Of a DNA stretch of 64,000 nt, positions 5,419-64,000 are shown one piece after another. The notes beneath the pieces were generated by a model, which was not told the DNA's origin, ran no database searches, and worked only from the letters and a program-made list of their open reading frames with translations. The stretch's first letter is position 1. Each line of letters starts with the position of its first letter. The stretch is from Dipteris shenzhenensis. Taxonomy: Eukaryota. The translations under genes were made by a program, and so were the position numbers. Where the stretch lies: the NCBI GenBank assembly GCA_047967505.1, contig CM106538.1; one strand, 5' to 3'.

Positions 5419-5600
5419 TGGTATTAGAGCTTGGTTCATGGCAAGGAGCTCAAGAAAGCAAACCAAGTTTGCGGTGCCCTGGTAAGAGAACCAGTGTTGC
5501 TTTCCTTTTTTGAGTTTGGGAGCAAATCTCTGCAGGTAGCATAGCTAGAAAGTGCAAGAGTGCATTGTCTCAGATTGAGACGCCCTTCATGGTGTGGTGA

Positions 5601-10480: not shown

Positions 10481-10835
10481 TGTTGAGATATCAAGCTCCA
10501 CTCGTGATAAGCCAGAGTGACTCTTGTGCATTTATGTTACTGACTTGTTAGCTGTAGATGCGGTTGGTACACTGCCCATGAATAATAGCTGGATGACAAC
10601 TATCCTTATGTACTCTAGTTCGTGGCTCAGTTAGTATGCCACCTTATTTAGCTGAGTTTGGATTGAGACCCACATATACGGTTCTTCTATTTCTTTGTAC
10701 AACAAGAGTTCTTTTGGTTTTCACAACTAAGAAGAGGAAAACTGCTTTCAGCCTCCACCTTTGTGCGTATTCCCCCATTGTGTATGTGAGAAAGCCACAA
10801 GTGAGACTCCTTCCTTCTCTCCCACTATCTTCACA
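10481..10835 (+). repeat. Copia-1 3' LTR
   Basis: Follows the PPT; more than 15 substitutions and a 3-bp indel relative to the 5' LTR. Confidence 0.95.
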
Positions 10836-21980: not shown

Positions 21981-21984
21981 TTAA

Positions 21985-24170
21985 AGGCTGCATCAAACCT
22001 AAGGATGGTTGTAATGACTTTGACACTAATCTCTTTCTTAGGATTCAATAGGATTAAAATCTCTTCTTCACCAAATTCAAAAAAATGAGGTTGTTGTCGA
22101 ATTAACAACATAGCAGTGAATGAAATTCCAATCTGCTACAATAGAGTCATATTTTCATGACTCATCTTATTGAGAGAGTAGTCTACATCGTATTCTTCTT
22201 GACTTGCTATGTCTTCTACATCCTCCTTCTGCTATAAAAATATAAAAAAGTTATAAGATGTACACATCCCAAATAAAGGCTTAAACAAGCATAGAAATAT
22301 AAAGATAAGATTTCATACATGCTGCAATGTAGTCATATTTTTAGGTTGTTCCCCAACATTAATAATGGTTTTTTCATTAGACTGCATAGAAGTATACAGA
22401 TAAGGTTTCATACATGCTTTCATTAGAGTGAGTCTCTCCTCCTCTTGGAGGAAAAATTTAAAAAGTTATGAGATTTACACATCCCAAATAAAAATAAAGG
22501 TTTAAATAATCATAGAAGTATAAAGATAGCATGATTTCATTAGACTCAGTCTCTTCTCCTCTTGGAGGAAAATATAAAAAAGTTATGAGATTTACACATC
22601 CCAATTAAAGGCTTGAACAAGCATACAAGTATAAAGATAAGGTTTTATACATGCTGCAATGTAGTCATATTTTCAGCTTGTTTCTCAATTTTCTCAATGG
22701 TAGCAATTAGACGCTGAATACTCTCAGCCTGAAACACTAGTAGATCGGCTTCTGTATATGATTCCATTTTGACTGGTAACTCCAAATCAAAAATCTCTCT
22801 AAGAAACAACATGCAGTTGTAGGCAACTCTCCACCCACAGTTGTGCCCATCTTTTTGCTCCACTAGTAGACGTCATTTGAATTCTACTTGGTCTTGTTGC
22901 TCCGTGGTTGTTCTAACAGCAGATACTAGCCGAAATGCAGCATTGTCCATCATGACATATTAAATATATTAATATGTCATGATCATAAGATACAAAATAA
23001 GAAAGTAACAAAAATATTAAGAGAATAATTACCTTGGGGAGTTGGCATGATAGCCTTCCATTGAATTCACAAACCACAAATGGTTGACTTCAAGGTCCCA
23101 AGTGATCAGACTCCAATGTGAGCTACACAACCAGATTAAAAATGATTATTGTTTTACACAAACTTGCCAAAGAAATAGTAAAAATAAGGTTGGAGTTGAT
23201 ACTTACTCCTCATGATAAGGCATAAAGATGACTTGCACCCCATCTAAATTCAAAGGGCTTAACCAGGTACAAACATCTTCTATAGTCTTTTGAGGAGAGC
23301 TAAGAATAGAAGAAAGGAGAGCATCGAGCATGTAGACACAATTCTGCACTGCACTAGGAAGCTGAGAAATAGCTACACTACACCAAGAAATAAACAAACG
23401 TTAGCTCATAGAATTGATTTGCATTCCGCACTAGGAAACTGAGATATAACTACACTGTAAACAAATAAACAAATGTTAGCTCATTGAAGTAGCAACAAAT
23501 AAACAAACGTTACTTGAGAATGGCCAGGATAACATTGTCATTAACCTCTTTTAAAGGATTGGAGAGGATTGAAACCTCCTCTCTACCAAAGCTCAAATAC
23601 TGAGGTTCTCGTTTCAAAACGATCCTAACTTTAAATGAGCTTTCCATTTTATCCAATGCAGCTAAATTTACAGAATGGGTCTCTGTCATAGCTTGTATTC
23701 TATGTTTGCGGTCATTTTGCTTTTCCATGGTGTCTTTAAAGCTCTTGTGCTCATGGGATTCTTCAATCAAATTTAGAGGTGGTTGCATTGCTGAAGTAGA
23801 AGGGAGTGCCTCCATATTGACTTCATCCATTTCTTCTCCCTCTATTGCCTGTAAACAAATATGAGAGATTAGATTCATTATCTTTAAATTTAAATCTTAT
23901 TTAAAAAATTATATTTAGTTGAGAAATAGAGAGTTCATACCGCTAAGTATTGTCGTAGTGGTCTTTTTACATAACCTTGCGAGCCATAATTATCAAAGAA
24001 GGCATCATCATCTTTCTCTTCATCCACCAACCTCTCTCTAAATGGGTCATGTAAGTCCATCTTTTCATCATCATCAACTGGGACATTATGATCTTCAAGG
24101 TCATCATCCATCTCATCAGTCTCCTTGTGCTCTACCTCTTTTTCATAGCCTGTGGTTAGATCTGCTTGAA
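21985..24170 (-). pseudogene. Spliced Ulp1/C48-like cysteine protease gene, with a partial second protease N-terminus
   Basis: Phase-compatible GT-AG exons give LSNPLKEVNDNVILAIL-N...VYMLDALL..IFMPYHEDSHWSLITWDL..FVNSM..; next exon has VEQKDGHNCGWRV (His/Gln/Cys motifs). One in-frame TGA and an apparently lost acceptor near 22950. Confidence 0.75.
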
Positions 24171-24666
24171 GCTGAAAATAAGCCATGAAATGCTTGTTTT
24201 CAATAATATTTGTGGAGTAAAAGGTCTTATTTAATAGCATGTTATGAGTGTTAAACTGCATGTGAGCAAAGGGACTAACAACGATTAGGAACTAGTTAGA
24301 AAAATTTGAGCATGGCTTCGATTGGCAACTTGGAGAATTGTCTCTCCTCTAAGGCAATCTAATCTATGCTAAACTATGCTAAACCAACTGTCGAAGCGAA
24401 GAAAAGCAATAAATAATTTCTTTTTCTGTGTTCATTTTAATGTGTTGCGGTTTAAGAGGCTTAAATATGCAAAAGAAGGGGTTTTGATGTAGAGGCTAAA
24501 CTTGCATGTGAGAGAAATGAAGAACAAGTATCTAAAGAAAAGTTAACATTTTTCAATTTAAAAGAGGAATATATATATAAATATTATCTCACCTTCAAAA
24601 CAACCCATAAATTCACTCTTTTATAATTTTTTAAAAGTATAATATAAAACATGTAAATATATAAAA

Positions 24667-24684
24667 CTCTCTCTTTCTTCTGAA

Positions 24685-24738
<54 letters not shown>

Positions 24739-24997
24739 CTAATTCTCTCTGTAGCCATAGTCAAGACACCTCATTCTCTCTCTTTCTCTGACAACTCTTA
24801 TGTCTTTCCCTCTTTGTCCTCATCCCACTCATTCTCTCTCTTAGTTTATCTCAAGTCTCTCTTTCTCTCCCTCCCATGGCGGCTAGGATTTATCATTCTC
24901 TCTCTTCATCTCTCTCTCTCTCCCTAGGATTTGTAATTATTTCTCTCTCTCTCTCTCTCTAGAGATTTATTATTCTCTCTCTCTCTCTCTCCTCTTC

Positions 24998-25030
<33 letters not shown>

Positions 25031-25380
25031 TACCCTCTCTACCTCGCTCCCTCTATCCTCTTGGCTGCTAGGATTTGTCATTCTTTCCCTCTCTATGTCT
25101 CTCTCTCTCTCTCTCTAAATTCTCTCTCTTAATCTCTCCCTGCCTTCCTCCCTCCCTCCCTCCCTCCCTCTCTCCCTTTCTCTCTCTCCTCTGTCCCTCT
25201 TCTCACTCTTAATCTCTCTTTCTCTCCCTCCCGTCTTCTCTCTCATTTCTCATTCTCTCTCTCTCTCTCTCTCCCTCTCTCCCTCCCTCCCTTGGCAGCC
25301 ACGGCTATGACAAGTCTCATTCTCTCTCTCTCTACCTCCCTCTCTTGGTGGCCATGGCCGCTAGAAGTTTCATTCTCTCT

Positions 25381-41555: not shown

Positions 41556-43589
41556 TAAATATTTCTCCCAAGTAAAGTTATATGTTGGTGTAGTTCATGG
41601 TTGTGTGTTCTATAATTTATAGGCTATAGATACACAAAGGTGGAAACACCTTCACAACAAGAACTTGATTATATGGGATGGCAGTCATAGGTTGGTTGCA
41701 TGGACACAAGCAATCTTGAAAGTGAGGAATGCCCCTCATTTTTGCATTGTTGTTTTATTGACATTATGTTTGTTCATGTGATGCTTGTTTATTGCATAGT
41801 GGGACAAATCCTAGAGAGACATCCAATGGTCCAATGCCAGGTGATTGCTTTCCACAAGGAAGACTAGACTAAGCTATTGATGTACCTAGAAAACCTGAAG
41901 AGATGAATTTTTTGCTTTTCGAGTTTGCATGGGTTTTATAGGGTAGTAATAGGTATTCTTGAGCTAGGAGTCTCAACCTTGTTATTGGTGCATTGCATAG
42001 AATCACCCATGTGCACATGCCTCAAATTTTTGGGCACAAAATCTTCTTATGCAAAAGTCCAATATGTCCAACTTGTACACATTGCTAGAGAAGCTCACAG
42101 ATGAGGGGAGCAGATGCGCTGAGAGCATAAGAACCTAAGATAGCTCCAAGGCAAGATGGTAAAATATTCCAATGAGCATGTTGAGAGTTCACGCTCAACA
42201 TCATGTGATCATGTGTGCATAGCACCATCACGTGATCATATGTGCATAGCACTAACCTTATAGAGTGCTATAAAGGAAAGGGTTAGATCCCCTAACCCTA
42301 ACCCTAAAAGGGTTTGTATATATTCTATTTTTTCAACTAATTCTAGTGTACAGTTAGTCATTTGTGGTGTGCTCTCTAGCTGTGCCCTCTCTCCTCATCT
42401 CCACTCTTCTCCTCTCCCCTCTTCATATTTTGTCATGGTATCAGAGCTCCCTTGTCTTCCGTTGAGACATTGTGATTCTTGAGAGTGTGAGAGAGATTGT
42501 GAGATTGAGAGTTCTCTTGAGTGATTGTGAGATCCTTCCCTTCACTTCCGTTGAGAGAAAATTCCGTCCATTAACTTTCTTGAGAGTTCTTTGAGAGATT
42601 GAGTATTCATTCTTCTAGAGAAAGAGAGAAAGATTTCAGTTGTTGTGAGTCTTGAGAGTTCATCTCTTTTGAGTGATTCTGAGATATTCAGCACCTTGCG
42701 AGATCTTGCGAGATCTGTTTTTTTTGGAGAGAGAGAGAGAGAGTTCTTCTTCATGCTACAACGGCCAATTCTCTATCAACGCACGCCTCCATAGAGGCAA
42801 TTGACTGCAGTGGGTGGGAGCGCCCTACGCCATCTCCAAGCCTAAAGCAAAGACAACGCCTCTGCCACCATCAACGGCCGCTCCAGTACCTCCAAATGCT
42901 AACAAGCTTACAAGAATAGCCGCTCCAACCGTATGAAGGTAGAAAATCGAGCTCCAAAGAGCTCTTATCAAGCTTTCGCAGCAATTGCTTGAAGACACTA
43001 CATAGTTTCTTCTTCGACCAGTGACTTCTCCAACCAACAGCCCTGCCACGGGCTGCTCCAACGCCAATAGCCAGCGGCCTTCTTCAACAACGAGCAGCGC
43101 CACTAAATGGATCTCCTGCCTCGTGAGCCTCTACAACAGACGACATGCTCCACGGCTCAACGAACTCCTCACTTTCATCGCAAGCTTCTCAGTGTCTCGG
43201 GAGAAACTGGGGCTTCTGGCGTCCTGAATCTCTCCACCGAACAAGGCTCAACCGCGACCGAACAAGGCTCTTAGCCTTCTTCAACAGCAACTACGGCTGG
43301 GCGACCTCTGCGTCAACACCCTCGCCGCACCAACGAGCAAGCACCTCCTACAATTAGCTCCAGCGAATAGCGACGGCCACCTCTCCAAGCAGCCATCAAA
43401 TGCACGATCTCCGCCAGAGCTCACGGGCTCCCTCGTCACATAGCGCCATCGCATCGTCGACGGAAATGAGGATGGAATCTACAAAGATTCTGTCAAAATC
43501 TTGAAAATTCGGTGGCCCTCCTTTTGACACGTGGCCTTATCACCAACCTTATCCACCCAGGGTCACCACACACACAGGTGTGGTCAAGG

Positions 43590-48986: not shown

Positions 48987-50469
48987 AGGAAGGACATTCT
49001 CATTAAAGGGGTGTGATGGAATGTAATGCTCAGTCCTTCTTCGATTCCCGAGAATCATCATCTTGAGGGAAGGCCTACTTCATGATGTTGATCTTGAGGG
49101 AAGGTGTTGAGAGTTCACGCTCAACATCATGTGATCATGTGTGCATAGCACCATCACGTGATCATATGTGCATAGCACTAACCTTATAGAGTGCTATAAA
49201 GGAAAGGGTTAGATCCCCTAACCCTAACCCTAAAAGGGTTTGTATATATTCTATTTTTTCAACTAATTCTAGTGTACAGTTAGTCATTTGTGGTGTGCTC
49301 TCTAGCTGTGCCCTCTCTCCTCATCTCCACTCTTCTCCTCTCCCCTCTTCATATTTTGTCAGAGCATACTTTGCAAGTTCATGTTCCACGTATGCCTCCA
49401 TTTTACTAGTTTGTAAATATTTCTCCCAAGTAAAGGTATATAATTGTTGAGATTCTATGTTGGTGCACTTCATGGTTGTGAATTATGTAATTTGTAGGCT
49501 ACAGATACACAAAGATGGAAACACCTTCACAACAAGAGCCTAATTGTATGGGATGGCAATCATAGGTTGGTTGCATGGACACAAGCAATCTTGAGAAGTG
49601 AGCAATACTCCCCATTTTTGCATTGCCATTTTATTAACATTATGTTTGCTAATGTGATGCTTGTTTATTGCATAATGGGACAAAATTGTAGAGGTATTCG
49701 AGTACCGAGTGATTGTTTTCCACAAGGAAGAGTAGGTTGAGATATTAATATAACTAGAAAACCTAAACAGATGACTTTTTCACTTTTTGAGCTTGCATGG
49801 GTTTTATAGGGTAGTAATAGGTATTCTTGAGCTAAGACTCACAACCTTGCTAGTGGTGCATTGCATAGAATCACCCATGTGCACATGCCTTGAATTGTCG
49901 ACACAAAATTTTCCTTATGCAAAATTCCAATACTTGTACACATTGCTAGAGAAGCTCACAAATGAGGGGAGGAGATGGGCAGAGAGCATAAGATCCCAGG
50001 ATAACTCCAAGGGGAACTCCCAATGAGCATACTTTGCCAATCCATGTTCCAGGTATGCTTTCATTTTGCTAGTTTCTCAATATGATTCTATAGGTATGCA
50101 TTCCATGTTGGAACTGTGGGGAGACATGAAGTGGATAAAGAACACAAGAGTGTAGTCCACACACAAATCTGCACTAAATAGTTCAACAATAGAAGTACAA
50201 GACTTGGGATATATATGAAACCCAAGTATAAAGTGAAAACCCTAGACTAGAATAACTTAGACCAAGTCTAGCCTACAATACCATACCATTGTATGTTCTA
50301 TCAAATCCCCCCTCAATGGTATGGCTGAAGTACTTTGGGAACTCCTTAGAAGTACCTAGGGTATCTAAAGTACCATGGTTGCACAAATTCATCCAACATG
50401 ATATAGCAACCTATGGGAGTATTACAAGAAAAACAATGTCATTTTACAAGCCCCCTTGATATTGTTGTA

Positions 50470-53400
50470 ATGTCTCTCATTCCCAAGCCTGTTCGATGAC
50501 ATACAAACACCTCTGCTGATAGGCTCTTAGTGAAGATATCTGCTACATTGTCCTCACATGGACAATAAATGAGGCTAATGATGCCATCTGCTATACAATC
50601 CTATATAAAGTGATAGTGATTTTCCACATGTTTCATGTGAGCATGAAAAATAGGATTGTTACCAATCTTTATGCAACTCTGACTGTCACACAAGATAGAG
50701 GTGATTGATCATCTTGTGAATGATGCAAGTCATAAAGTAGCTTCCTTAGCCATATGCATTCTGTAGTAGCTGCATTTGCTGCCTTATACTCCGCTTCACT
50801 AGAAGAAAGAGAGACCTTGGCCTGCTTCTTACTTAACCAACATATGCATGCGGAACCCAAAGAGAAACAATAGCTAGAAATGGATTTTTTATCATCAATG
50901 TCCCTTGACCAATCAGAATCTATGAAGCCACATAGATCAAGATCACAAGCATTGGTATAATGCATCCCAAGAGTAATAGTGCCATTCACATATCTGAGAA
51001 CACGCTTGGTGGGGGTGTGATTTTTTGGTGAGCTTTTTGTCATGAGCTTTTTTTCAATTTTCATGAATATTGCAAGCTTTTCATTCACCTGAGAGAGAGA
51101 GAGGGGGGGGGGGTTCATGGAGTGGGGTGGGTTGAAAGTTTGGGTTGTGGTTGCAGTTAAGAGGAGAGAGGGGGGGGAGGGGAGATAAAGGAAAGGGGGA
51201 GGGATGGGTGTATGGGTAAGGTGGCATGGAGAAGGGAGGGGAGGGGAGTTGGAACATATATTCAAAGAGGAGTGCAAGGAGGAGAGAGAGGATGAGGAAT
51301 GTGAAAGTTATGTTCATCTACTAAATGCAAAGGGGAAGGGAGAACATGTGGGAAATTTGTTCATTTTCAAAGTGTATAATTTGACAAGTTTGACCTCATA
51401 TTTGGATTCCTCGTCGAATTCCGGTCATTTTGAGTACCAACATGACCATATTCCGATAAAAAATTTAAAAATGGTGTTTTTGTCATGAATTCAGTTTTGG
51501 CCTTATTTGGGCCTATTTTGAATCTGCGCTAGCGCAGACTCAAAATAGGCCCAAAAAAGGCCAAAATGACAACAACACCATTTTTTCAATTTTTATCGGA
51601 ATATGGTCATGTTGGTACTCAAAATGACCGGAATTCAATGAGGAATCCAAATATGAGGTCAAAAGTTTCAAATTATACACTTTTAAAATGAACATATCTC
51701 CCATAGTTCCTCCCTTCTACTTTGAATATGGACATATCTTCCATAATTTTTTGCCTCCTACTGCCACTCACATCCGCCCCCCCTTGTGCATAGTATACAC
51801 TCTTCCACCCCTCCCACATGTTATGAAAATGAACATATCCTATATCCTCTCCTCCTCTTTCTAACCTCCCCATCTTTCTTATAACAAAAACACATATGGA
51901 TTTCTAAAAAAAGCTCGCAAAAAAAAAGGAAATGGTAAAAAAGCTCACATTAAAAAGCTCGCCAAAAGATTTTCCCCGCTTGGTGGCATTCCAATGAGTG
52001 ATAGTGGGACAATGCATAAACTAACTCAATGCTCCTATAGCATAAGCAATATCAAGCCTTGTGGAATGTAAATAGATAAGACTCCCCACCAACTGTCTAT
52101 ACAAAGTGCCATCAAACTTTTTAGCCTTATCATACTTAGATAGTTTGAGACCCTTCTCAAGAGGTGTAGCTACAGCCTTACTATTCTCCATGTGAAATCT
52201 CTATAATATACTCCTGGCATACTTAGTTTGGGACATGAAAATACCATCTTGAGTTTGCCAAAACTCAATGCCCAAACAATAGTGCAGTAAAACCAAGTCT
52301 GTCATATCAAATGACTGAGACAAAGCTGATTTTACTGATGCAATATTTCCCTCATCACTGCTAGTAAGCATGATATCATCCACATAAAGAATAAGAATGA
52401 TGATTTTTTATTTTTCTTGAAGCACATAGAGATTTGGCTCAGTATGAGTGCTAACAAAGCCCTGTGATAACAAGAACTGATGGATTTTATGGTACCAAGC
52501 CTGAGGTTCTTGTTTCAACCCATATAAAGCTTTGCAAAGCTTGCATACCTTTTGCTCCTATTCCTTAACCATAAAACCTTGGGGCTACTACACATAGACC
52601 TCTTCCTTTAGGTCTCCATTCAAGAAGACCGTCTTCACATCCATCTGATAAACAAGCCAACTTTAACTTGCAGCAAGAGAAATGACAGTCCGAATGGTTG
52701 TCATCTTGGCTACAGGAGCAAAAGTCTCCTCATAGTCAATTCCTTCCTCCTGACTATACCCCTTGGCAACTAAATGGGCTTTATGTTTCTCAACTATGCC
52801 ATCAGAATGATATTTCAACTTATAAATCCACTTGCCAACTACATTCTTCCCAATAGGGAGATCAACCAATTTCCAAGTGGCATTCTTTTCAATGGACTGA
52901 ATTTCAGATTTCATAGCATCTTCCCATAATGGGTGTCCCTGAGCATCCTCAAAACACTAAGGTCAGCTTCCATAACTGTGCTCATCAAGGCATAATTGAC
53001 CTGATTTTGTGCTTGCCTTGTACTAGACCTTGTTCTCCCCAACACAGGCTGATTTTGTGCATCCTGAATGGTAGCTCGAGCCCATCTAGGAAGGGGTTGA
53101 CTAGTTGCAGTAGGCTAAGACTGATCTGCAAATTTTACCCTCCTCCTTTCATAGACAATAGGCTGATTTTCATTGACTAATTTCTGAACTGAAATTTTAG
53201 AAGTGCTACCTTCATCAGTATGGGGAATTTTTCCAAATGTAGTGGAGGAAGAACTTGGTGTGTTAGACACATGTGATGGCATATCTTCTGACTCAAAATG
53301 AACAATATCCAAAGGTGTAGTGTCCTCAATGGGCATATGTAAATCATTAGGCATAAAGCAATCATTTTCATTGAAAGCAACATCTTTGCTTATGATAATT

Positions 53401-55702
53401 TTCCGTGTTTCAGGATTGTAAAGCCTATAGCCCTTGCTTTCAGTACTATAACCCACAAATATGCATTTGATTCCCTTATCATCAAGCTTGAATCTATGTT
53501 GATCTAGTACTAATGCATATGCCATTGATCCAAAAATTCTGAAGTGGCTAACCTTTGGCTTATATCCATAGAATGCCTCAAACGGAGTCCAATTCACCAA
53601 TGCTTTAGTTGGACACTTATTTTGGATGTATGTGGCTATAACTACAGCCTCACCCCAAAATACTTTAGGCATCTTTTTGTAGCTCAGCATGCATCTAGTG
53701 AGCTCCATGAGAGTCCTATTCTTTCTTTCCTCTTTCTTTCAGCAACATTATTTTGAGCTGGTGTGTAAGGGCATGTCTTCTGATGATGAATCCCATGATG
53801 AGCCAGATAATTCTTATAGGCATGAGACATGTACTGTCCTCCTCTATCTGTCCTGAGTGTTTTGATCTTGGCATTAGTCTGGTTCTCAACAAGTGCTTTG
53901 AACTCCTGAAACCAATGAAACACCTCAGATTTCTCTTTCATGAGAAAGATCCATGTAAATCTGGAGTAATCATCAATAAAAGACACATAATACTTGGCAC
54001 CACGATGTGATCGCACATTCACCTCACATACATCACTATGCACAAGTTGCAATATATGTGGCTTTGACTGATCCATCCTTTCTGAAAGGCAAATGGTGCA
54101 ACTTTCCCATAATACACCCTTCACAAAAAGAACTAGATGGTTGCTGCAATTTTGGCATCCCTTCAACCATTTGATTATTCTGCAAGTATGCCAATGCTCT
54201 ATGATGTGCATGACCAAATCTAGCATGCCATAAATCACATGAAGATGCATTAGATGTAGCCAAGGCATGCTACACATGGGGCTTAGCATCCAACTTATAA
54301 AGAACCTTATCATAAGTGCCAGTGGCAACCACTGCATATCCCTTTCTAGGATCTTTAATTGGGCATTGATCATCTTGAAACTCCACAAGCATGTACTGAT
54401 CATGAGCTATGGATGGAACTGAAATAAGATTCTTCTGCAAGTCTGGAACATACCAAACATCATGAATATACTTGACTTTGCCATTATCAAGCTTAATGGG
54501 AATATGTCCCACTCCTGTGATGTCTTGAGAAGCATATTGGCACAAGTAACTTCCCACCCATACACAGGTTTGATGCTATCAAACCACTCCTTATGAGGAG
54601 TCATATGCTATGAAGCACCGCTATCCAAATACCAATTCTCATTCACATTAAGTGAATAGGCATCATCATTATTGCTATGAGCAATAGCATGATCACAATC
54701 ACAATCCCCCCTGGAAGATATCTTAGAGAGTGTGGCTGCAAATACAAAATCCTGATCATCCTGAGCAACGTGTGCATGTGAGCCAAATGCATTGTTCTCA
54801 GTATGAGCCACAAAATTACTGTTTGAGTTGCCTTGCCTCTTCTTCTCATTTGCAATGCATTTCTGACATTCTACAATGTAATGGCTTGGCTTCTTGCAGT
54901 AATTGCATCTACCCTTTTTCACCTTACGATCTTTGCTTGATCTAGCATTATTGGTACTATTATTTGCCCCTTGTGGCTCGTTGTTTTTTGGCTTATATTT
55001 CTGAAATTTTCCCCTCTCCCCAGTGGCTAGAGCTTGCTCACTGCCATGAGAGCCACGAGAAAAATTATGAGCTCTTTCTTCTTCCTACAATAACAAACCA
55101 ACCAATTCTTCAAAAGAAATAGATGCAGCCCTGAGAGTGATGCTCAATGATGTAGCAAATGTACTATATGAAGGAGCAAGAGTATTAAGAGTGATAGAGA
55201 CCAATATCTTTTGTTCAATCTCCTCATCAACATTTGCAAGCTGATCTTGCAAATCTATAATTTTTGCTACATGCTCTGTGATGGTTTGACCATCAGTCAT
55301 TTTTTAGATTTTTAAGCTGATTGTTGAGTGCGATCACCCTGGCCATATTCTTAACATTATGTATACAGGACAACTTGTCCCAGGCATCCTTAGAAGAAGT
55401 ACAAGACTTAATAGTCTTCATGATGTGCCTCTTCACTGACAAGGAAATCAAAGAAAGTGCTTGAGCATTGTGATGGTCAAACTTCTTTTGCTCCTCAGAA
55501 AGAGGATGAGATGAGCTAGCAATAGAACCTTGACTACTAGGAGTACTAGGAGTAGTCACAGGCCTAATTGCATCTCCATTAACAATATCCCAAGGCCTTT
55601 TCCAACCAAAATATTCCTGAGCATAAAAGACCACAAGGCATAGTTTGATCCATCCAACTTATCCGCTTCAATCAGGGTGCCAAAATTCTTAGAAAGAGAC
55701 AC
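50470..55702 (-). pseudogene. Copia-3 gag-pol pseudogene
   Basis: CNYCKKPSHYIVEC; WYLDSGAS; HSDVC/FIDDYSR/RTDRGGQY; (Y)VDDIML; IDSDWSR..SSSEAEY. Many frameshifts; split by a foldback insertion. Confidence 0.93.
51012..51977. mobile_element. Non-autonomous foldback DNA element (Mutator-like or hAT-like) inserted in Copia-3 RT/RH region
   Basis: GGGG..CCCC termini with gagcttttt subterminal motifs; target duplication gcttggtg (8 bp; 10 bp if termini are GGG/CCC); strong central palindrome 51359-51695 around tctgcgctagcgcaga. Confidence 0.9.
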
Positions 55703-57187
55703 GATTGCACTTCATAAGTAACCTGAAAATAAAATGCAAATATAGATAGAAAATCTGCCCCAAAGGTGTTGTCACAATGCACAATTCCCTTCCGGAATCA
55801 CAAGGCAAAATGGGCAATAGTATTTGCTCTGTAAATATTCTCAACTTTCAACCCAACAAAGGCTTGATAAGCATGAACCAAAGGTATAAATTTTGAAGCA
55901 AATGTTTGCTTAAAAGGCATCCAATGATAGCATTCACTGTTAGCTGACCTTTGGCTCAATATGCATCCAATAACTTGCCCCCAATTTTGATTTTTGTCCG
56001 CTGCGTGTAAAATATCACAAGAAAAGTGATCTCCCAGTCCAAAATAGCTTCAAGATGACTCCAGAAAGAAGTCGACCAAATTTTGGGAGCTGAAACAGTT
56101 CAAAATCAGCAACAAAACTACCAGGAATGAGGTCACCTAGCCCACATGGTTTTCCTAGAGAAATGCGAGCTGAAAATAGGCTGAAAACTGATGAAAAACA
56201 TCAAGGAAATGCCAGATTTGAAGTTGTCCAGGCACAGGATGCTCCAAGAAGCAGTTTGAGCTGATGTAGGGGCTGGAAACTGACAAAATCAATAGCAAAA
56301 GTGCCCAGAATGAGGTTGCCCAGCCCAGATGTAGCTCCTGAAGATAGGAGACTAGAAAAAAGTGCTATAAATCAACAAATGGAGCTGGTTTTGAGGATGT
56401 CTGGTTGCAAAAGATCCCAAAAAACAGCAAGTTTATAGTCACCTAGGTCCAGTAGTGACCCTGGTGAAGGCGTCCAGCTACATGAGACCTCTAGAAAGCT
56501 GTTACGGGCAAAAACGAGCTAGCTGGATTGATTTATTCGCAACAGAAATGACTCTTCATGAGAGAACTCAAACCCAGGAGTGGTAGAAGCACGTGAAGCA
56601 ATGCGGGAGCCAAGCTCTGATACCAATTGTTGGAACTGTGGGGAGACACGAAGTGGATAAAGAACACGAGAGTGTAGTCCACACACAAAGCTCCACTGAA
56701 TAGTTCAACAATAGAAGTACAAGACTTGGGATATATATGAAACCAAAGTATAAAGTGAAAACCCTAGACTAGAATAACTTAGACCAAGTCTAGCCTACAA
56801 TACCATACCATTGTATGTTCTATCATTCCAAAGGTGATGGAGTTCTCATCATACGAAAAATTCAACAAGACTTAAATGCAAGGGTGTAGGAGTTGTTTGT
56901 TGAGGTTAACCACATAGAGAGAGAATACAAAGCATACCAAGTGCATTTGAGGGATGTTGGAAAAGTTTTTATAAAATGGGTTACATGCTTGTGACCATTG
57001 CAAATCTTGCAAATGGAAAATCATTTTTGATATTCTATTTCAGTATAGCCAATGATAGTGGAGAAGTTATAGCTACTGATTCATGCCAATCTACTAGAGA
57101 AGAAGGTAAGCATGAAGAAGAAAAGGTTAGCTTTGGGTACACATATCTTTTGTAGAACACGTAAAACCTATTTCATATAACAAACTT

Positions 57188-57198
57188 ATATGTATGTA

Positions 57199-57231
<33 letters not shown>

Positions 57232-57249
57232 GAATATTATTAAATATTT

Positions 57250-57324
<75 letters not shown>

Positions 57325-57340
57325 GCACATGCACACGCAC

Positions 57341-57371
<31 letters not shown>

Positions 57372-57421
57372 TGCACATGCACATGCACACGCACACGCAC
57401 ACGCACACGCACACGCACATG
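57188..57421. repeat. Compound microsatellite (TG)(TA)(TC)(CACAYG)
   Basis: Visible directly. Confidence 0.95.
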
Positions 57422-57422
57422 C

Positions 57423-58400
57423 TGTTAGCCGAAAAAGAAATCAGGACAAGTGGCTAGATACTAAGCATGGTGATGCTCAAGGGACATAGAGGAAAGGAGA
57501 ACGAGAGGGCGAAACGTTATCATGGGGGGGGAAAAAGGATTAGAAGGGGAGGGAATGAAGAGGGAGACTATGGTACAAGGGGAAAGGGAGAGGGGGAAGA
57601 GAAGCATGTACATGATGGGAGGAAGAATGTAAAGATGGAGACATCAAGGGAAGAGGGCCATGCTTTATTTGAAAGGAAGGGAAGGGGGAATCAAAGTACT
57701 AGCTAGGTGGCTTTACAAGAATGAGCGTGTCTCATCAAGGAATAGCCCCCTCCTTTTATAGCCAAGAGAGGGGGTCTCTCCCAATAAATGCATCCTCCCA
57801 CATGCATGGTGTGTGTGGAAAAGTCTCCCATGTGGGCTAGGTGGTTATGCACTCTCAATTGTATGCGACAACCCTTTGCCTCATTTCTCCACATAAATCA
57901 AGCCCCATATCTCAAGTCTATGATACTCCCTTGGTCTCTCCCCAATTTTATAATACGTTCAAACCTCTAGGAGGACATTGGCACAAGGAATCTTGCCACC
58001 TCATCCTACTTTCCCCATTATTTAACTTGCATTCTTGGACCTTCTATATCTCCCCCACATGGGCCTATCCTACATGGAGGGAATAATCCAATATAATATC
58101 CATCTCCACCTATTTTATATTACTGCTCCCATAGACTTTGGGCCATATCTCACTAAATGCAGTCTAGGTGGAGGGGTGGCACATGGAGGAGCCATGCCAC
58201 CTTACATTTTATAATATTACTACCATGGATTATGTACATCATACCTTATGGGTCCTCTTACGTGGAAGGGTGGCACATGGTCATGCCCTACCACCTCAAC
58301 CCTAGGCCCTATGCACACCATATTTTATTATACTATTGCCACACATACAAACACACACTCATATTTATGCCTTTTTCCTTAGACAAATTTATCCATAACA
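57423..58400 (-). repeat. Gypsy 3' LTR (978 bp)
   Basis: TGTTA/TAACA inverted ends abutting the polypurine tract; partner LTR not in window. Confidence 0.75.
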
Positions 58401-58429
58401 GTCCCCCCCCAGGCAGGGAATGCACAACA

Positions 58430-61400
58430 TTTCCATGCCTGGGTCCATCACTCACAAAGAAGGGCTTGAGGTAATGCTTGTTGTTGATTACCTTCTTGCC
58501 ATATGGCTCATGCAGCTCCTGAACTTGTACAGACCCATTGCTACGTTCCTTGATGACTTTGTATGGACCGGTCCACAGTGGCAAAAAGTTCTTATCCATT
58601 TGATGGTCCAATCTGTTATCAAAGCATAGCACAACATCCCCCTCAGCAAAGCATCTTTCCCATCCCTTGCGAATCTTAGCATCCAAGCGGGCCTTTTGTC
58701 GATTCTTTTGGATCTCTGTTTGATGTAGAGCAAGGTGTCGAGTTTCATCTAACTTCTCAAGTTGTACCAATCTGGCTCTACATGTTCATCTTCTATCATC
58801 CTCTGTTCTTGTGCCAATCTCAAGGCCGAAATCTCTATCTCTAGTGGTAAAATTGCCTCAGTACCATACACCAACTCAAAAGGAGTGTGACCTATAGACA
58901 TTTTATGAGTGATGTTGTAAGCCCACATGGCTTCAGTGACCTTATGATCCCACTGGCTCGTGTTCCTGCGGCCATTTTTCCCATGGTTTTACAAAGGAGG
59001 CCATTGGTCCGCTCCGTTTGACCCATGGATGCTGGATAATAGATGCTAGAAGTGTGATGATCAATACCCATGCGATCCATGAGCAATTCCACTGCTTCAT
59101 TTAAGAATGGACTCCCATGATCAGATACTATTTCCATGGGTGTCCTAAACCTTGTGCAGATACGTTCAAATATGAAATTTGAAACTACCTTACCATTTGC
59201 AACGGGGAGGGCGATAGCTTCAGCCCACTTAGTGACATACTGAGTGGCTACCAAAAGATACTTCTTTTTGCGGGCAATCATGGGCAAGGGCCCGACAAAA
59301 TCTATTCCCCACTTCTGAAACGGATGGATGGACATCACTGGGTGATGTTGCCTAGGACGAAAGTCCTTCCTACCAAAGAATTGGCATGGTTCACAAGTTT
59401 TGCAATGCATAGTGACATCCTTGAACAAGGTCAACCAATAGTACCCAGCATGTAAAATCTTATTAGCTGTATAGTCACTGGCATAGTGGCCTCCACAAAA
59501 TCCATCATGATAATGCTTCAATACCTTAGGTACTTCATCTGCATCAATGGCCCGTCTTAGTACCCCATCCATGCCTTGACGGTACAACACGCCATCAAAG
59601 AGGGTGTAGCGCCTACTATCTCTACGGATCTTCTTTCTCTCATAGCTAGTACTTTCTGGAGGAAAGGAGAAAGCAGTTAGAAACCTATAGATACCACCAT
59701 ACCATGGATCCCCAACTTCTATGGCCACTACAAGGGGTATATCAAGGCACTCCTCTAAATCAATCAAGGCATTCTTCAAGTTGGAACAATCCCCTTTTAC
59801 AATTTTGAAAGAGAAATCATATTCTTGTAAAACTGCCAACCATTTGGCCAACCGGCCCATGGGGTTTGGTGATTAAAGAACCTGCTTTGCAAGACTAGTG
59901 CTAGTGAGTATAATGGAGGACTTTCCAACCACATAATGCCTAAATTTCTCAATGCAGAACACCAAAGACAAGGCATGCTTGTCAGCCTCTGAATAGCGTC
60001 GCTCAGTGTTGAACAATTGTCGAGAAGCAAATCGAACGGGATACATGAACCGATCCTCCCCTTACTGGAGAAGAATACCTGCCAGAGTGTGCTCACTAAA
60101 CCCAGGACCCAGGATTGATATAGAAAGTCTTTGACCAATCTAGATTGTGTAGAATGGGTTCTGAAGCTAGAGCATTCTTGATTTGTGCAAACCCATGATC
60201 ACAATCCTCATCCCAAGAGAAATCAACACCATCTTTTAATAGCATAGTCATGGGTTGTGTCAAAGAAGCATATTGATCAATGAAGCGACGATAGTGTCCT
60301 GCTAGATTGATAAAATGAGCATACTTGATATTTGGTTTTTGGTGGCGAGAGCTTGAGGATGGCTTCTACCTTCTCAGGGTTAGGCTTGACGCCCTCAGAT
60401 GAGACAATGTGTCCCAGTAACCTCCTTTGAGTGGCTCTAATGGTGCATTTCTCAGGGTTGAGACTGCCATTCGCATCATTGACCCTTTGGAAGGCCAGCC
60501 TAACCTTCATGACATGCTCCTTACGTGGCGAGAATATACAAAAATCATCTAAAAACACCTCCAAGAAATCCCCCAAATAAGGATCAAATACCATTTGCAT
60601 AAATCTCTAAAAGGTACCAAGAGCATTGGTGAGGTCAAATGGCATTACTTTGAATGCAAATGTCCCCCAGGGTGTGGCAAATGTGGTTTTGAGCACATCT
60701 TCTTCGGCAATTCTGATTTGATAAAACCCGGAGTAACCATCACAGAAAGTATACATCTCATGACCACTTACCTTCTCAAGAATGAGGTCTTGAAAGGGAA
60801 GAGGATGATGGTCCCTCTTGGTGGCTGCATTGAGTTTCTTATAGTCGATGCAGACCCGCCACTTGTTTTTCTTTGGGGTGACTACCACTAGTGAAACCCA
60901 TTCAGTATTGTGAACTGGAACAATAAACCCAGCTTCTACAAGTTTTTGCAACTCTGAGCAAATCATCGGTCTGTAAGGGCCCTAATATTTGATACTTCTG
61001 AGCCACAGGCTTCGCATCAGGCTTCAGCTCTATCTTGTGTTCTATGGTAGTCACATGGCGAAGGTGGCAGTAGCTAGTTGCGAAAAGGTCAGGGAAATCT
61101 TTGAACATTTCTAGGAACTCATCTCTCACTTGGAGTGAGGTCTGGGGAAATCATAGATTCAAGCTGTTGAGGACTAGCTGTTACCTTTTCTGTAGGTGGT
61201 GGGGTTGGAGACACCCCCATCATGTAAACTTCCTCCTCTGAGAATTCCTCCCCCCCGTCTGATTCTTCCATTGATTCGGACACCGAGGATGAGAGAGTGT
61301 CACTGTCTTGCTCCTCTTCTTCTTGTGGTCCCGTGGCACCTAGTTGCATCGGGATCTTCTCCTTAGAAGCACCAAAAGACATGTGTCCTGTCTTCCAATA

Positions 61401-63074
61401 GCTAACTCCATCACTCTTTCTCAACCATGGTCTCCTGAGTATGGCTGGGTAGCTCCTACCTGTATCTTCAATGTCCACTACATAGAAATTGATAGTGGTG
61501 GTCAACCCATTGACAGTGATGGGCAAATCCTCAATGACTTCCAGGGTGGCGAGTCGTCGACCATCTGCTACCTCCATTCGAGTGGAGGAATGCCTTGTGC
61601 ATTTCAAATTCAATTTCTTCATGATTCAGGGCACCATGATATTACATGCAGGTCCCCCATCAACACACACACTTTTGACATGGCAATTATCTAAGATGAC
61701 ATCTACTGTATGTGGGTGCCGATCAATTTCTTTAGAGATAGAAGATACCTCTCGTATCTTTCCATTTTTCTTGCTCCTCCTTGTTGAGAGCCCTTGCTGC
61801 AACTCACGTCTCACCTTAGGGCTTAATGCTATTAGTTGAGGGAGCGTGATGCTCAAAGACCGATGAGCAAGGTCCTGAACGACCGAATAGTCCTCTTGCC
61901 TTGAGCCGATGGGACAATTCGAGGGTGACCACTTACTCCTGTGCTTTTAGTCTTCTCTATTGGTGGGTTTGCCATCTTAGAATCTGAGGGCTCTGAGAAG
62001 GACACCTTCTTCCTGGGGTGGCCCGATCCATGGTTTGGAGAGGGGTCCAAGGTGGTACGACTTCTTTTCCCAAGGTCAAGGATCTCTACGTCAGAATCCT
62101 CAGTGCCTGATTCACTTAGAAGATTCACCCTTGGAATATTGGGACATTCCATGCGATAATGACCCTTCTGGTGGCACTTGTAGCATACAACATTAGCACG
62201 GTCTCTTGGAGGGCGGTTGGCTTGATTTCTGATGCCCACCATCTCAAGCTGAAGATCATTCAGGGCCTTGGCTAGGTCATTGACTCCAGAATCTGTTGCA
62301 GGAGGGCCTCCTTAGCTGGAGGGGCCGAGGGAGTAGAAAGGAGGGGGGCTCGTGGGCGAGGTTGGGGAAATCTTCGAGGCAGATGGTGAGAATATACACC
62401 TTGTTGAGGGTAAGCATCTAAGGGAGGACCATACATTTGAGGTGGAGACGGTGGATACATCCCTGATGGGGGTGGGAATATGCCCCTGAGTTAGACCCCC
62501 CAGGTTGTTGTTGCAAGAATTGAGGGGGTTGCGGAGGGACAATCGTCTTCTTTGAAGCGGGGTCAGACTGAACTTTATCAAACTTTTGAGCAATCTCATG
62601 TGCTAGCACCATAGTTTCTAGATTCTCCCATTTAAGCTTGAGGCGGAATTCGTCACTTGCTCCTACTACAAGGTAGCCCAACACATGCTGAGTCATTCCA
62701 GCTCGAAATCCGGCATTGTTCTCCTGCGTGGCAATTAAACAGTCCAGGAGCACGGCCGCTCGATCCACATATCGACACGCCGTCTCACCTTCTGACTGCT
62801 TCAAGTTTGCCACATGCAGGTACACATTCTCTAGCTCCTCTTCTTTGCCAAAATACTCAATCATTGCTACTGTTAACCTTGGCTAGCTTTGGTAAACATC
62901 TTCGGCCTACTTCTCATACCACACTTGAGCCAAACCCTTTAGAAATGTGGGAAGAACCAACAGCCATCTGTCTTCAGTAAGAAAGTTGAGAGAAGCACAA
63001 TGGCGCTTGAAGGCCACAAGATACTCATTTGGATTTTCTTCAACTCATCCACAAAACACGAGAATGTCAACCAT
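58430..63074 (-). pseudogene. Gypsy gag-pol pseudogene
   Basis: Gag starts MVDI at 63074 (FLKGLAQVWY; CYKCHQKGHYRMEC). PR VDGGPACN; RT WRVCIDYKKLN/DGYSGFYQI/FLDDF; degenerate RH 59860-60125; INT HDGFCGGH..C..C, WGIDFVGP, SDHGSPF, WTGPY. Confidence 0.92.
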
Positions 63075-63659
63075 GCTTGGAAGATGGAAAAGAGAGAGGC
63101 AAGACGAGGATTATCTATGGACAAACAATAGAAAGAGGAAGCTTGAACTGAAAATCGGGTGAAGATACATGCACAAAGTCACATAGGCAGGGTGGGGTGT
63201 GACTGGTGTATTGTGAAATACTACCCAGGAAGAATCTTTAGCATAGAATAGCACATAGACAATCTCAAAAGGACCAACTCTCATGATATCACATCCATCT
63301 TTACAAGCGAGGGTTAGAGACACGGTATTGCATGAGGTTGTTCATCAAGGCAAACAAGAATGCCATGACAAATGTCAACAGTTGGAGAGCTTGCACATCA
63401 CCTTTAGCTTCTTCCAGTTCTTGTAGTCGCCATGCTATTTCTTCAAGGGGTGTGTGGTCTAGCATCCTTCCTTTGAGCAATGTCCTTGAGGACCTTTCTG
63501 ATGATCTTCCGAAGTCGATAAACTCATATCAAATATGCCCAACTCTTAGTTTCATGATGACCACAACCTTTGCATTTCTTATAAATGATCACCCTCCTTC
63601 GTGGCTTGCAGCTTTGTTGGGTTGGTGCTTCCACTCGTGTCATGCGTGATTGAAGTACA

Positions 63660-64000
63660 TGCTTCACGTTCCAAGAAATCAACAACTAGATTTCGAGCTC
63701 AAGGGATATGCTGAATTTTTACCTCTTCAAATTGGTTGCAAAGTTCCAATGCTTGTTGATGTCGTGGAACCAAGCCTTTGCTCCACACCTTCCAGCTTCC
63801 ACTAACTTGTTCACACACTAGTTGAGAATCTCCTTGCACCTCAAGTTGCTTGACGTGATGTTCTTGTGCCTTTTGTAGCCCAAAAGTGAGTGCCGAGTAC
63901 TCAGCTTGATTGCACGTACTCGCAGGTGCAGACTTGCTATAACAATACTCCTCACCACCCAGTGAAGTGAGCTTCACACCCATGCCAGTAGCCTTGGTCG
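63660..64000 (-). pseudogene. Archaeal/plant-type RNase HI (aRH) domain, N-terminus beyond window
   Basis: TCNQAEYSAL..GL..A..LEVQGDSQLVCEQVSG.WKV..FEEVKIQHIP*ARNLVVDFL; the stop at 63699 is likely CGA>TGA in HIPR. Confidence 0.88.

What the first reader, a model, noticed from the sequence alone, without database searches (positions are those of the whole stretch)
59860..64000. Gypsy element with an apparently dead pol RNase H and an archaeal-type RNase H located upstream of gag
Seen: the RH between RT and INT translates as TFYINPG-FSEHTLAGILLQ..RYSEADKHAL..LTSTS..GRLAKW. The three acidic catalytic positions (usual TDAS, EKE, TDH) are all replaced, and INT follows with no second RH. An aRH with E (NQAEY), D (GDSQ) and D (N..VD) lies on the same strand ~600 bp upstream of the gag ATG (63074), with no LTR or PBS visible in between. 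Known: Tat-lineage elements pair a degenerate RH with an aRH placed within or 3' of pol (between PR and RT, between RH and INT, or after INT). Inference: this may be an unlisted aRH-gag-PR-RT-RH-INT architecture in which RNase H comes from a separate upstream ORF.
Basis: partly seen in the sequence, partly recalled or inferred. Interest (0 to 1): 0.78.

Follow-up and report, generated by a model that had tools for sequence, protein, structure and literature searches.

The report
Dead "pre-capsid" Tat Gypsy retrotransposon copy
This is a decayed copy of a plant Gypsy-type retrotransposon whose own RNase H is inactive and whose working-type RNase H sits in a small separate gene ahead of gag, a rare layout that was already described in 2023.

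Summary
On the minus strand the order is aRH (Pfam RVT_3, 2e-16, cut by the window end), a ~500-nt spacer, gag/CCHC, PR, RT, native RH, INT, a G8 polypurine tract and a putative 3' LTR.

The native RH lacks three of its four catalytic acids. Two other family copies (P0164, P0167) show the same loss, so it is a family trait and not decay of this copy. The aRH keeps E, D and D. The first D lies off-window but is present in 2 of 2 relatives that cover it.

Between aRH and gag there is no LTR copy, no tRNA-iMet PBS and no poly-A. Contigs from four other sequencing runs cover aRH, spacer and pol at similar depth and bridge them.

The "unlisted architecture" claim is wrong. [quoted passage not shown] A 2026 paper names it "pre-capsid".

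This copy is dead, with 9 in-frame stops and at least 8 frame changes. Its 5' LTR lies off-window, so membership in one element is likely (about 0.8) but not proven. Interest is low.

The parts
63579..64000 (-). Archaeal-type RNase H (aRH) reading frame, 5'-truncated by the window end. It holds catalytic E, D and D. An in-frame TGA sits at 63701-63699 and the frame ends at 63581-63579.
   Evidence: Pfam RVT_3 2.1e-16. 4200 library hits at E<=0.001, best 78% identical. Alignment with 11 aRH sequences.
63075..63578 (-). Spacer between the aRH frame and the gag ATG. It has no Pfam match and holds 16 ATGs before the gag ATG. It contains one open 75-codon frame (63528-63301) that might be a gag N-terminal part.
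   Evidence: (proteins 11 and 12: 0 families). No LTR copy, no iMet PBS, no A-run of 6 or more. Bridged by contigs from other runs (records 8, 16, 28).
61853..63074 (-). gag, with ATG at 63074, including a CCHC zinc knuckle in 62311-61853. It is broken by three in-frame stops and at least one frame change.
   Evidence: zf-CCHC 0.0024 and zf-CCHC_3 0.00054, both below the curated cut-off.
61119..61946 (-). Protease region (motif VDGGPAC) followed by an acidic linker. One in-frame stop. There is no room for an aRH between PR and RT.
   Evidence: Three-frame reading. No Pfam match at 0.01 (protein 4). PR is assigned by position and motif, which is inference.
60277..60981 (-). Reverse transcriptase, split by an in-frame stop at 60609-60607.
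   Evidence: RVT_1 1.7e-08 and 4.4e-06 on the two pieces.
59759..60128 (-). Native Gypsy RNase H (gRH) with a degenerate catalytic core. The first Asp, the Glu and the third Asp are replaced; the last Asp is kept. One frame break near 60100 and two in-frame stops.
   Evidence: RT_RNaseH 7.9e-12. Alignments. The same replacements appear in family copies P0164 and P0167.
58333..59758 (-). Integrase (H2C2 zinc finger, rve core) and a C-terminal region. Two frame changes near 58900 and 58770. No RVT_3 after INT.
   Evidence: rve 8.3e-12 and Integrase_H2C2 1.5e-10; C-terminal piece 0 families.
58401..58410 (-). Putative polypurine tract (G8 followed by AC), directly before the putative LTR start TG.
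   Evidence: Read from the sequence. Inference.
57423..58400 (-). Putative 3' LTR (TG...CA ends, TATAAAAGG near 57760). It is unconfirmed because no second copy lies in the window.
   Evidence: No second copy in the window. Summed contig depth in run X1 is 147-297 here against 17-160 inside the element, which the tool says is only a weak measure.

Best explanation
This is a dead, window-truncated copy of a Tat-lineage Ty3/Gypsy LTR retrotransposon with the published 'structure #4' or 'pre-capsid' layout. The order is [5' LTR, off-window], a small independent aRH ORF in the 5' leader, gag, PR, RT, degenerate native RH, INT, PPT, 3' LTR.

In working family members the archaeal-type RNase H, made as a separate protein of about 150 residues, would supply the catalysis that reverse transcription needs. 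That means removing the RNA template, making the PPT primer and removing primers. The native RH next to RT has lost three of its four catalytic acids and would serve only as a tether or connection-like structural domain, as in other Tat elements and retroviruses.

Shown here: domain identities and order; loss of the gRH catalytic residues across the family; retention of the aRH catalytic residues; absence of LTR, PBS or poly-A between aRH and gag; collinearity in other copies.

Inferred: that the 5' LTR lies beyond 64000; that aRH is translated on its own; that it acts in trans inside the particle.

This copy cannot work. It has 9 in-frame stops and at least 8 frame changes between 63701 and 58333.
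For: 1. Domains and order on one strand.

2. The gRH core is degenerate in the window and in 2 of 2 other family copies that cover the columns. P0164 has His at the Glu column and SNN at the 'TDH' column. P0167 has 'FYINSG' at the first-Asp motif. The last-Asp column is D in 3 of 4 sequences that cover it (window, P0165, P0166; H in P0164), which fits the pattern reported for Tat gRH.

3. The aRH keeps E, D and D. The first D is present in 2 of 2 relatives that cover it (P0001, P0097). P0001 starts with Met seven residues before that D, as a stand-alone ORF would.

4. No aRH lies elsewhere in pol. The PR-RT linker is too short, INT follows gRH directly, and the post-INT piece has 0 Pfam families.

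5. There is no LTR copy, iMet PBS or poly-A between aRH and gag.

6. Other runs. All 30 depth bins are covered in all 4 runs. The aRH bins have depth 61-79 (X1), 9-10 (X2), 80-86 (X3) and 349-460 (X5), in or near the range of the internal bins. Contigs bridge 63158-64000 and run on past the window end (X2 record 16, 43 differences), 63387-63827 (X5 record 28, 79 differences) and 63310-63600 (X1 record 8). Contigs in X3 and X5 join 63263 to 61867, which links the spacer to the PR region in other copies. X1 is a set of only 2 million letters, so what it assembles is likely high-copy sequence (inference).

7. INT tree. The window plus P0163 sit in a 100/98 clade with the aRH-bearing polyproteins P0154, P0155, P0156 and P0062. 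They are sister (92/96) to aRH-less relatives with an intact RH, from a liverwort and a pine. This fits the text of the 2023 paper, which places its structure #4 clusters (Tat B, C) on one branch with the aRH-less Z lineages.

8. The layout is published.
Against: - The 5' LTR, PBS and TSD are off-window, so the aRH is not shown to lie inside the LTR pair.
- The 3' LTR is itself only inferred.
- The tool states that contig depth cannot rank parts of a stretch. Some bridging contigs at about 95% identity could come from the same locus in a close relative rather than from a separate copy.
- No contig listed in the output bridges 63074-63158, the last stretch of spacer into the gag start. Only the longest of 1700+ pieces were shown.
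- No curated Tat or Athila reference sequences were available, so the lineage call rests on a 16-row INT tree and on the gRH pattern.
- The strongest library hits to the aRH after the three family fragments (two of which, P0097 and P0147, rank lower in the table because they are short) are not retrotransposon proteins. They are proteins with 2-3 tandem RVT_3 domains, 11 of them with a SAP domain, at 30-42% identity (25 of the 32 proteins scanned).
- One sentence of the 2026 paper calls the moss structure 'post-integrase', which conflicts with its own definition list and with the 2023 paper.
Confidence: 0.8

Rival explanations
1. Chance neighbours. The Gypsy copy is 5'-truncated just upstream of gag, and the aRH is the 3' end of a different element. 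That element could be a plant L1 LINE, whose ORF2 ends in an archaeal-type RNase H, or a 'post-integrase' Tat element.
For: The window ends inside the aRH, so what precedes it is unseen. Plant L1 elements do end in an aRNH (one passage). The region is a nest of transposons, with a Copia element at 50106-56825.
Against: On the minus strand of 63000-64000 there is no A-run of 6 or more. There is no LTR between aRH and gag, which a post-integrase neighbour would need. In relative P0097 the 74 residues before the aRH have no RT or CCHC match; RVT_3 is its only Pfam family. Contigs from other runs keep aRH, spacer and PR region linked, at depths in or near the internal range in 4 of 4 runs.
Confidence: 0.12
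2. Amplified chimera. An aRH-bearing fragment was joined to this Gypsy family by nested insertion or recombination, and the composite was then copied. The aRH would be a passenger without a function for the element.
For: Rearranged variants exist in other runs: joints 61867 to 63263 and 63384 to 60014. The 2023 authors themselves ask how an aRH outside pol could act.
Against: The family's native RH is catalytically dead and no other RNase H is present in pol. An element without any RNase H could not replicate on its own, by established knowledge of reverse transcription. The aRH keeps its catalytic residues across copies that are 20-30% diverged.
Confidence: 0.05
3. The aRH is a fragment or pseudogene of a host gene of the SAP plus tandem-RVT_3 type that happens to lie next to the element.
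For: 25 of the 32 library hits scanned carry 2-3 RVT_3 domains, 11 of them with a SAP domain. They include the strongest hits after the family fragment P0001, at E 1e-27 to 1e-15.
Against: Those hits are only 30-42% identical, and their scores sum several domains. No second RVT_3 follows in the 600 nt downstream. The stretch is multi-copy in four runs. The 70-80% relatives are short single-domain fragments.
Confidence: 0.03

Closest known systems
Tat LTR retrotransposons with structure #4 ('pre-capsid'): clusters Tat B (four mosses) and Tat C (Selaginella tamariscina). Biryukov and Ustyantsev 2023, PMC10508981; named 'pre-capsid' in PMC13468544 (2026).
   Same: aRH sits in an independent ORF ahead of gag on the same strand. 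The native RH next to RT has a degraded catalytic core. No aRH lies inside pol. On the INT tree the window sits with aRH-bearing Tat-type polyproteins and next to aRH-less relatives with an intact RH.
   Different: Nothing in the layout differs. Two things are unknown: whether the host belongs to the taxa listed, and whether this family is among those catalogued. The paper's supplement is a PDF that could not be read. This copy is decayed and lacks its visible 5' end.
Tat structure #3 ('post-integrase'): conifers, Cycas, Ginkgo. This is TatIII of Neumann 2019.
   Same: aRH lies outside the RT-RH block, possibly as its own ORF. The native RH is degenerate.
   Different: There the aRH follows INT. 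Here the stretch between INT and the PPT/LTR has no RVT_3, and the aRH lies before gag.
Tat structures #1 and #2 (aRH between RH and INT, or between PR and RT), e.g. P0156 (Malus) and P0154/P0155.
   Same: The same kind of degenerate gRH (aligned) and an aRH of the same Pfam family with DEDD.
   Different: There the aRH is a domain of the Pol polyprotein, so it is made and packaged with RT. Here it is not part of pol.
Ogre elements with an extra ORF upstream of gag (eORF-5'F).
   Same: An extra forward ORF between the 5' LTR and gag.
   Different: The Ogre eORF is reported with PMD or Tr28-type domains, not RNase H. Ogre carries its aRH inside pol.
Retroviral tether (connection) domain plus acquired RNase H.
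   Same: The native RH is reduced to a non-catalytic domain after a cellular-type RNase H was gained. The parallel is discussed in the papers.
   Different: The retroviral RNase H is of the fungal/metazoan type with His, and it is fused directly after the tether.

Membership tests
Tat-lineage Ty3/Gypsy, structure #4 (pre-capsid) | Ty3/Gypsy order PR-RT-RH-INT on one strand, with gag upstream | tested here: met
   Pfam matches and three-frame reading. PR is assigned by motif and position only.
Tat-lineage Ty3/Gypsy, structure #4 (pre-capsid) | RT/INT phylogeny places the element in the Tat clade | tested here: inconclusive
   In a 16-row INT tree the window plus P0163 lie in a 100/98 clade with four aRH-bearing polyproteins and three aRH-less ones, apart from the chromodomain-bearing and metazoan rows. 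No curated Tat or Athila references were at hand. No RT tree was made.
Tat-lineage Ty3/Gypsy, structure #4 (pre-capsid) | Additional RNase H of the archaeal type with a DEDD core | tested here: met
   RVT_3 2.1e-16. E, D and D are present in the window. The first D is off-window but present in 2 of 2 family relatives that cover it.
Tat-lineage Ty3/Gypsy, structure #4 (pre-capsid) | Conserved active-site Arg of archaeal-type RNase H ('HIPR' column) | tested here: inconclusive
   In this copy the column holds an in-frame stop codon. None of the three close relatives reaches the column. All 8 distant sequences that cover it have R.
Tat-lineage Ty3/Gypsy, structure #4 (pre-capsid) | Native RH catalytic core degraded (last Asp may remain) | tested here: met
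   Three of four catalytic columns are replaced in the window. The same holds in P0164 and P0167 where they are covered. The last-Asp column is D in 3 of 4 sequences.
Tat-lineage Ty3/Gypsy, structure #4 (pre-capsid) | aRH is an independent ORF in the 5' leader, between the 5' LTR/PBS and gag | tested here: inconclusive
   The aRH has its own stop at 63581. It lies ~505 nt before the gag ATG on the same strand, with no LTR, PBS or poly-A between, and it is linked to the element in contigs from other runs. The 5' LTR and PBS are off-window.
Tat-lineage Ty3/Gypsy, structure #4 (pre-capsid) | Two LTRs and a target-site duplication | not testable with these tools
   Only a putative 3' LTR (57423-58400) is in the window. 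No genome is held.
Plant L1 LINE with C-terminal aRNH | Poly-A or A-rich tail after the aRNH; RT and CCHC upstream in the same ORF | tested here: not met
   No A-run of 6 or more on the minus strand of 63000-64000. The upstream part is off-window. In relative P0097 the 74 residues before the aRH give no RT or CCHC match. This is weak evidence, from one predicted protein.
Tat structure #3 (post-integrase) | aRH downstream of INT, before the 3' LTR | tested here: not met
   58785-58333 gives 0 Pfam families, and the PPT and putative LTR follow directly.
Cellular SAP plus tandem-RVT_3 proteins | SAP domain and 2-3 RVT_3 domains in one protein | tested here: not met
   No second RVT_3 in the 600 nt downstream. 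The stretch is multi-copy in 4 of 4 runs. The upstream side was not seen.

The most novel reading that the evidence does not exclude
There are two linked readings. First, the host may lie outside the four mosses and one clubmoss in which the pre-capsid layout has been reported, so this rare Tat form would be more widespread than published. Second, and bolder, the family may be a natural two-component reverse-transcription system: a free RNase H of about 150 residues, translated from the leader ORF, is recruited in trans into the particle, for instance by the dead native RH acting as a docking domain. That would make directly testable the question the 2023 authors left open, namely how an aRH outside pol can act.
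Probability: 0.25. Interest if true: 0.45.

Novelty: new member of a known kind. Interest (0 to 1): 0.2.

Why it matters
The repeated gain of a cellular-type RNase H, followed by decay of the native one, is a hallmark shared by retroviruses and Tat elements. The pre-capsid layout is the odd case because the working RNase H is not part of Pol. It raises the question of how the enzyme reaches the reverse-transcription complex.

This window adds one more decayed example, and a multi-copy family seen in several sequencing runs. It adds no new principle. Its practical value is for annotation: a domain-order classifier that expects aRH inside pol would call such elements chimeric or incomplete.

Tried and rejected
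- No genome is held for this window, so the 5' LTR could not be sought.
- The search for homologous proteins with the aRH and 'longer' lengths found nothing, so no fused aRH-gag or LINE-aRH protein of the family was found that way. The tool calls this weak evidence.
- The metagenome scan with the aRH confirmed 0 of 150 pattern matches.
- The metagenome scan with INT found 5 loci (L001-L005) at 28-39% identity, on contigs of 1.2-5.4 kb. They are too distant and too short to show a layout, and were not used.
- No other copy of the element is in the window, by blastn or by tblastn with 10 pieces. One search discarded all hits at or above 57300; searches cover that part.
- The idea that the ~500-nt spacer is itself an LTR was rejected, because it has no repeat downstream of INT.
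- The idea that the gRH replacements are private decay of this copy was rejected.
- BLASTP of the 62-aa gRH piece does not discriminate. It scores 31% to a Tat polyprotein with a dead RH (P0154) and 30% to one with an intact RH (P0153).
- No structure prediction, complex prediction or aRH tree was run. The 2023 paper reports that the aRH phylogeny is unresolved.
- The depth and coverage gaps are not used as evidence of absence.


Full report
**What is there.** The feature lies on the minus strand. Stop-to-stop frames and a three-frame translation, with Pfam, give the following order, reading 5' to 3' on that strand.
- 63998-63699: an RNase H of Pfam family RVT_3 (E 2.1e-16; RNase_H 2.9e-4). 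The window end cuts it off.
- About 500 nt with no Pfam match.
- 63074: the gag ATG, followed by a CCHC knuckle in 62311-61853 (below the curated cut-off).
- 61946-61119: a protease-like stretch. This is assigned by motif and position only.
- 60981-60277: RVT_1.
- 60365-59873: RT_RNaseH / RT_RNaseH_2 (7.9e-12 for the 62-aa piece).
- 59872-58892: Integrase_H2C2 and rve.
- Down to 58333: a C-terminal piece with no family.

A G8 tract follows at 58410-58403. After it comes a stretch that begins TG (58400) and ends CA (57423) and holds a TATA-like motif. I could not confirm them, because the window holds no second copy.

**State of the copy.** By my reading the path from aRH to the end of pol crosses 9 in-frame stops: one in aRH, three in gag, one in PR, one in RT and two in the native RH. 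It also crosses at least 8 changes of frame. CpG observed/expected is 0.38. This copy is dead. The frame break near 60100 coincides with a length difference against contigs from three other runs (table 4).

**The native RH is catalytically degenerate, and this is a family trait.** I aligned the window with three relatives whose RH is intact (P0151, P0152 and P0153, which carry TDA/VDT, the Glu motif and TDH/VDH).
- At the first-Asp column the window has P/G/S.
- At the catalytic Glu column it has His.
- At the third-Asp column it has Ser/Thr.
- The last Asp is kept (NALID).

Two other copies of the same family, found as unnamed predicted proteins, agree. P0164 (76% identical) has His at the Glu column and SNN at the third-Asp motif. 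P0167 (76%) has FYINSG at the first-Asp motif. The last-Asp column is D in 3 of 4 sequences that cover it (window, P0165, P0166; H in P0164). The aRH-bearing polyproteins P0154/P0155 and P0156 show the same kind of loss. Ustyantsev et al. [quoted passage not shown] The window fits that pattern.

**The aRH looks like a working-type enzyme in the family.** I aligned it with three close fragments (P0001 78%, P0097 80%, P0147 70%) and eight distant aRH domains.
- The window keeps the Glu (AEY), the Asp (GDS) and the last Asp.
- The first Asp lies about 16-25 residues beyond the window end. It is present in 2 of 2 close relatives that cover it (FDGA).
- P0001 begins with Met seven residues before that Asp, as a stand-alone ORF would.
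- In this copy an in-frame TGA occupies the column of the arginine that marks archaeal-type RNases H. All eight distant sequences that cover that column have R. None of the three close relatives reaches it.
- The frame closes at 63581.

**Does the aRH belong to the element?** This is the crux, and the window cannot settle it, because the 5' LTR would lie beyond 64000 and no genome is held.

Evidence that it belongs:
- No copy of 57400-58420 occurs anywhere in 58421-64000. The best blastn hit is 13 nt at E 0.2. No direct repeat other than microsatellites and a 38-nt sub-repeat lies in 56800-64000.
- None of the six window matches to the tRNA-iMet PBS motif lies between aRH and gag. Three of them sit next to other LTRs in the window.
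- There is no A-run of 6 or more on the minus strand of 63000-64000. That speaks against a LINE 3' end.
- pol has no other RNase H. The PR-RT linker is short and acidic, INT follows gRH directly, and the post-INT piece has no RVT_3.
- Contigs from four other public runs, from at least three coded organisms plus one metagenome, cover all 30 bins of 57400-64000. Summed depth over the aRH bins is 61-79, 9-10, 80-86 and 349-460 in X1, X2, X3 and X5. That lies in or near the range of the internal bins of each run.
- One X2 contig runs without gaps from 63158 to 64000 and 183 letters beyond it. An X5 contig with 79 differences in 441 letters spans 63387-63827. An X1 contig spans 63310-63600. Contigs in X3 and X5 join 63263 to 61867, which ties the spacer to the protease region in other copies.
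- X1 is a set of only 2 million letters. I infer that what it assembles is high-copy sequence.

Caveats: the tool warns that contig depth cannot rank parts of a stretch. Near-identical contigs may come from the same locus in a close relative. None of the listed pieces bridges 63074-63158, though only the longest of more than 1700 pieces were printed.

**Lineage.** I built a maximum-likelihood tree of the INT region with 16 rows. It places the window with P0163 (100/100). Both sit inside a 100/98 clade that also holds the aRH-bearing polyproteins P0154/P0155 (aRH between PR and RT), P0156 (Malus, aRH between RH and INT) and P0062. The pair is sister (92/96) to three aRH-less relatives with an intact RH, among them a liverwort and a pine protein (names). 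Rows with chromodomains and metazoan rows fall outside.

The 2023 paper states that its structure #4 clusters (Tat B, C) share a major branch with the aRH-less lineages Z1 and Z2, whose RH is not degraded. My tree is consistent with that, but it has no curated references. I therefore rate the lineage test inconclusive rather than met.

**What is known.**
- Ustyantsev et al. 2015 (section 6 and passages) and Neumann et al. 2019 (passages) list three aRH positions, all inside or at the end of pol.
- Biryukov and Ustyantsev 2023 (PMC10508981, whole main text read) surveyed 92 plant genomes and describe five structures. [quoted passage not shown]
- They also find that the native RH is degraded in all aRH-bearing structures, whatever the position of the aRH. 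[quoted passage not shown] - One sentence of that 2026 paper calls the moss structure 'post-integrase', which conflicts with its own list. In the window nothing RNase-H-like follows INT.
- The 2023 supplement, with its species and element tables, is a PDF that I could not read. I therefore cannot say whether this host or family is already catalogued.

**How it most likely works.** In intact family members, the genomic RNA would carry a short leader ORF for a free archaeal-type RNase H ahead of gag-pol.
- Shown: the ORF is separate, it is on the same strand, and it is catalytically equipped across the family.
- Inferred: the free enzyme enters the particle and carries out template degradation, PPT generation and primer removal. 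The dead native RH would keep RT geometry and substrate contact, like the retroviral tether.
- Unknown: how gag is translated behind the leader ORF. This copy has 16 ATGs between the aRH stop and the gag ATG. Gag may start earlier, for example in the open 75-codon frame at 63528-63301. A spliced RNA or reinitiation are further possibilities.

**Rivals.**
- Chance juxtaposition with a LINE or another Tat element (0.12). The absence of a poly-A or an LTR, the linkage seen in other runs, and the lack of RT or CCHC in the 74 residues before the aRH in P0097 all weigh against it.
- An amplified chimera with a passenger aRH (0.05). It fails to explain how a family with a dead RH and no other RNase H could spread.
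- A host-gene fragment (0.03). This was suggested because 25 of the 32 library hits scanned carry 2-3 tandem RVT_3 domains, 11 of them with a SAP domain, and they include the strongest hits after P0001. But those are only 30-42% identical, and the stretch is multi-copy.

**Verdict.** The architectural reading is probably right (about 0.8). The claim of an unlisted architecture is not right. This is a decayed member of the published pre-capsid (structure #4) kind of Tat element. Interest is low (0.2). It would rise only if the host lies outside mosses and clubmosses, or if the family were used to test how a free RNase H serves reverse transcription.

Noticed in passing
window 16925-22086: A satellite array with a ~182-nt period, at least 29 copies at 60-100% identity to the reference unit (families D1-D3).
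   Followed up: no
window 50106-56825 (minus strand): An LTR element with an LTR pair at 50106-50303 and 56628-56825 (97% identical). An exact tRNA-iMet PBS motif lies at 56614-56625, next to the upstream LTR. Copia-like gag ORFs lie at 54608-55658 (my reading of the translations, no Pfam run). It sits ~600 nt from the putative 3' LTR of the Gypsy copy.
   Followed up: partly
window 41578-42447 and 49105-49932: Two sets of direct repeats in different registers. 42179-42435 equals 49105-49361 at 100%. 41578-42064 matches 49453-49932 at 83-89%. An exact iMet PBS motif lies at 42436-42447. This looks like a young LTR element nested with an older LTR.
   Followed up: no
window 1397-1878, 5070-5550, 10483-10782: Repeats of 300-480 nt at 76-95% identity that include an iMet PBS motif (1747, and 5419 with one mismatch). 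They are duplicated or tandem LTR-element ends.
   Followed up: no
window 57131-57457 and 24614-25345: Compound microsatellites of the (AT)n, (GA)n and (GT/GC)n types. The first one abuts the putative 3' LTR end at 57423, so a TSD cannot be read there.
   Followed up: no
library proteins P0002-P0027: The best non-family matches to the aRH are proteins of 300-930 residues with two or three tandem RVT_3 RNase H domains. 11 of the 32 scanned also have an N-terminal SAP domain. They are an unnamed group of multi-RNase-H proteins whose hosts I could not see.
   Followed up: partly
window 61867-63263, seen in runs X3 and X5: Contigs in two runs join 63263 to 61867, so ~1.4 kb of gag is skipped or replaced by about 59 other letters (my arithmetic from table 8). 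This would be a gag-less variant of the family that keeps the leader and spacer. Another contig joins 63384 to 60014.
   Followed up: no
PMC13468544, section 2.4: The 2026 paper lists 'pre-capsid' as structure 4. One sentence, however, calls the moss (Tat B) structure 'post-integrase', at odds with the 2023 paper. Only passages were read.
   Followed up: partly
window 58333-64000: CpG observed/expected is 0.38 in the element and 0.16 in the putative LTR, against 0.36 for the window. This fits long-term methylation and decay.
   Followed up: no
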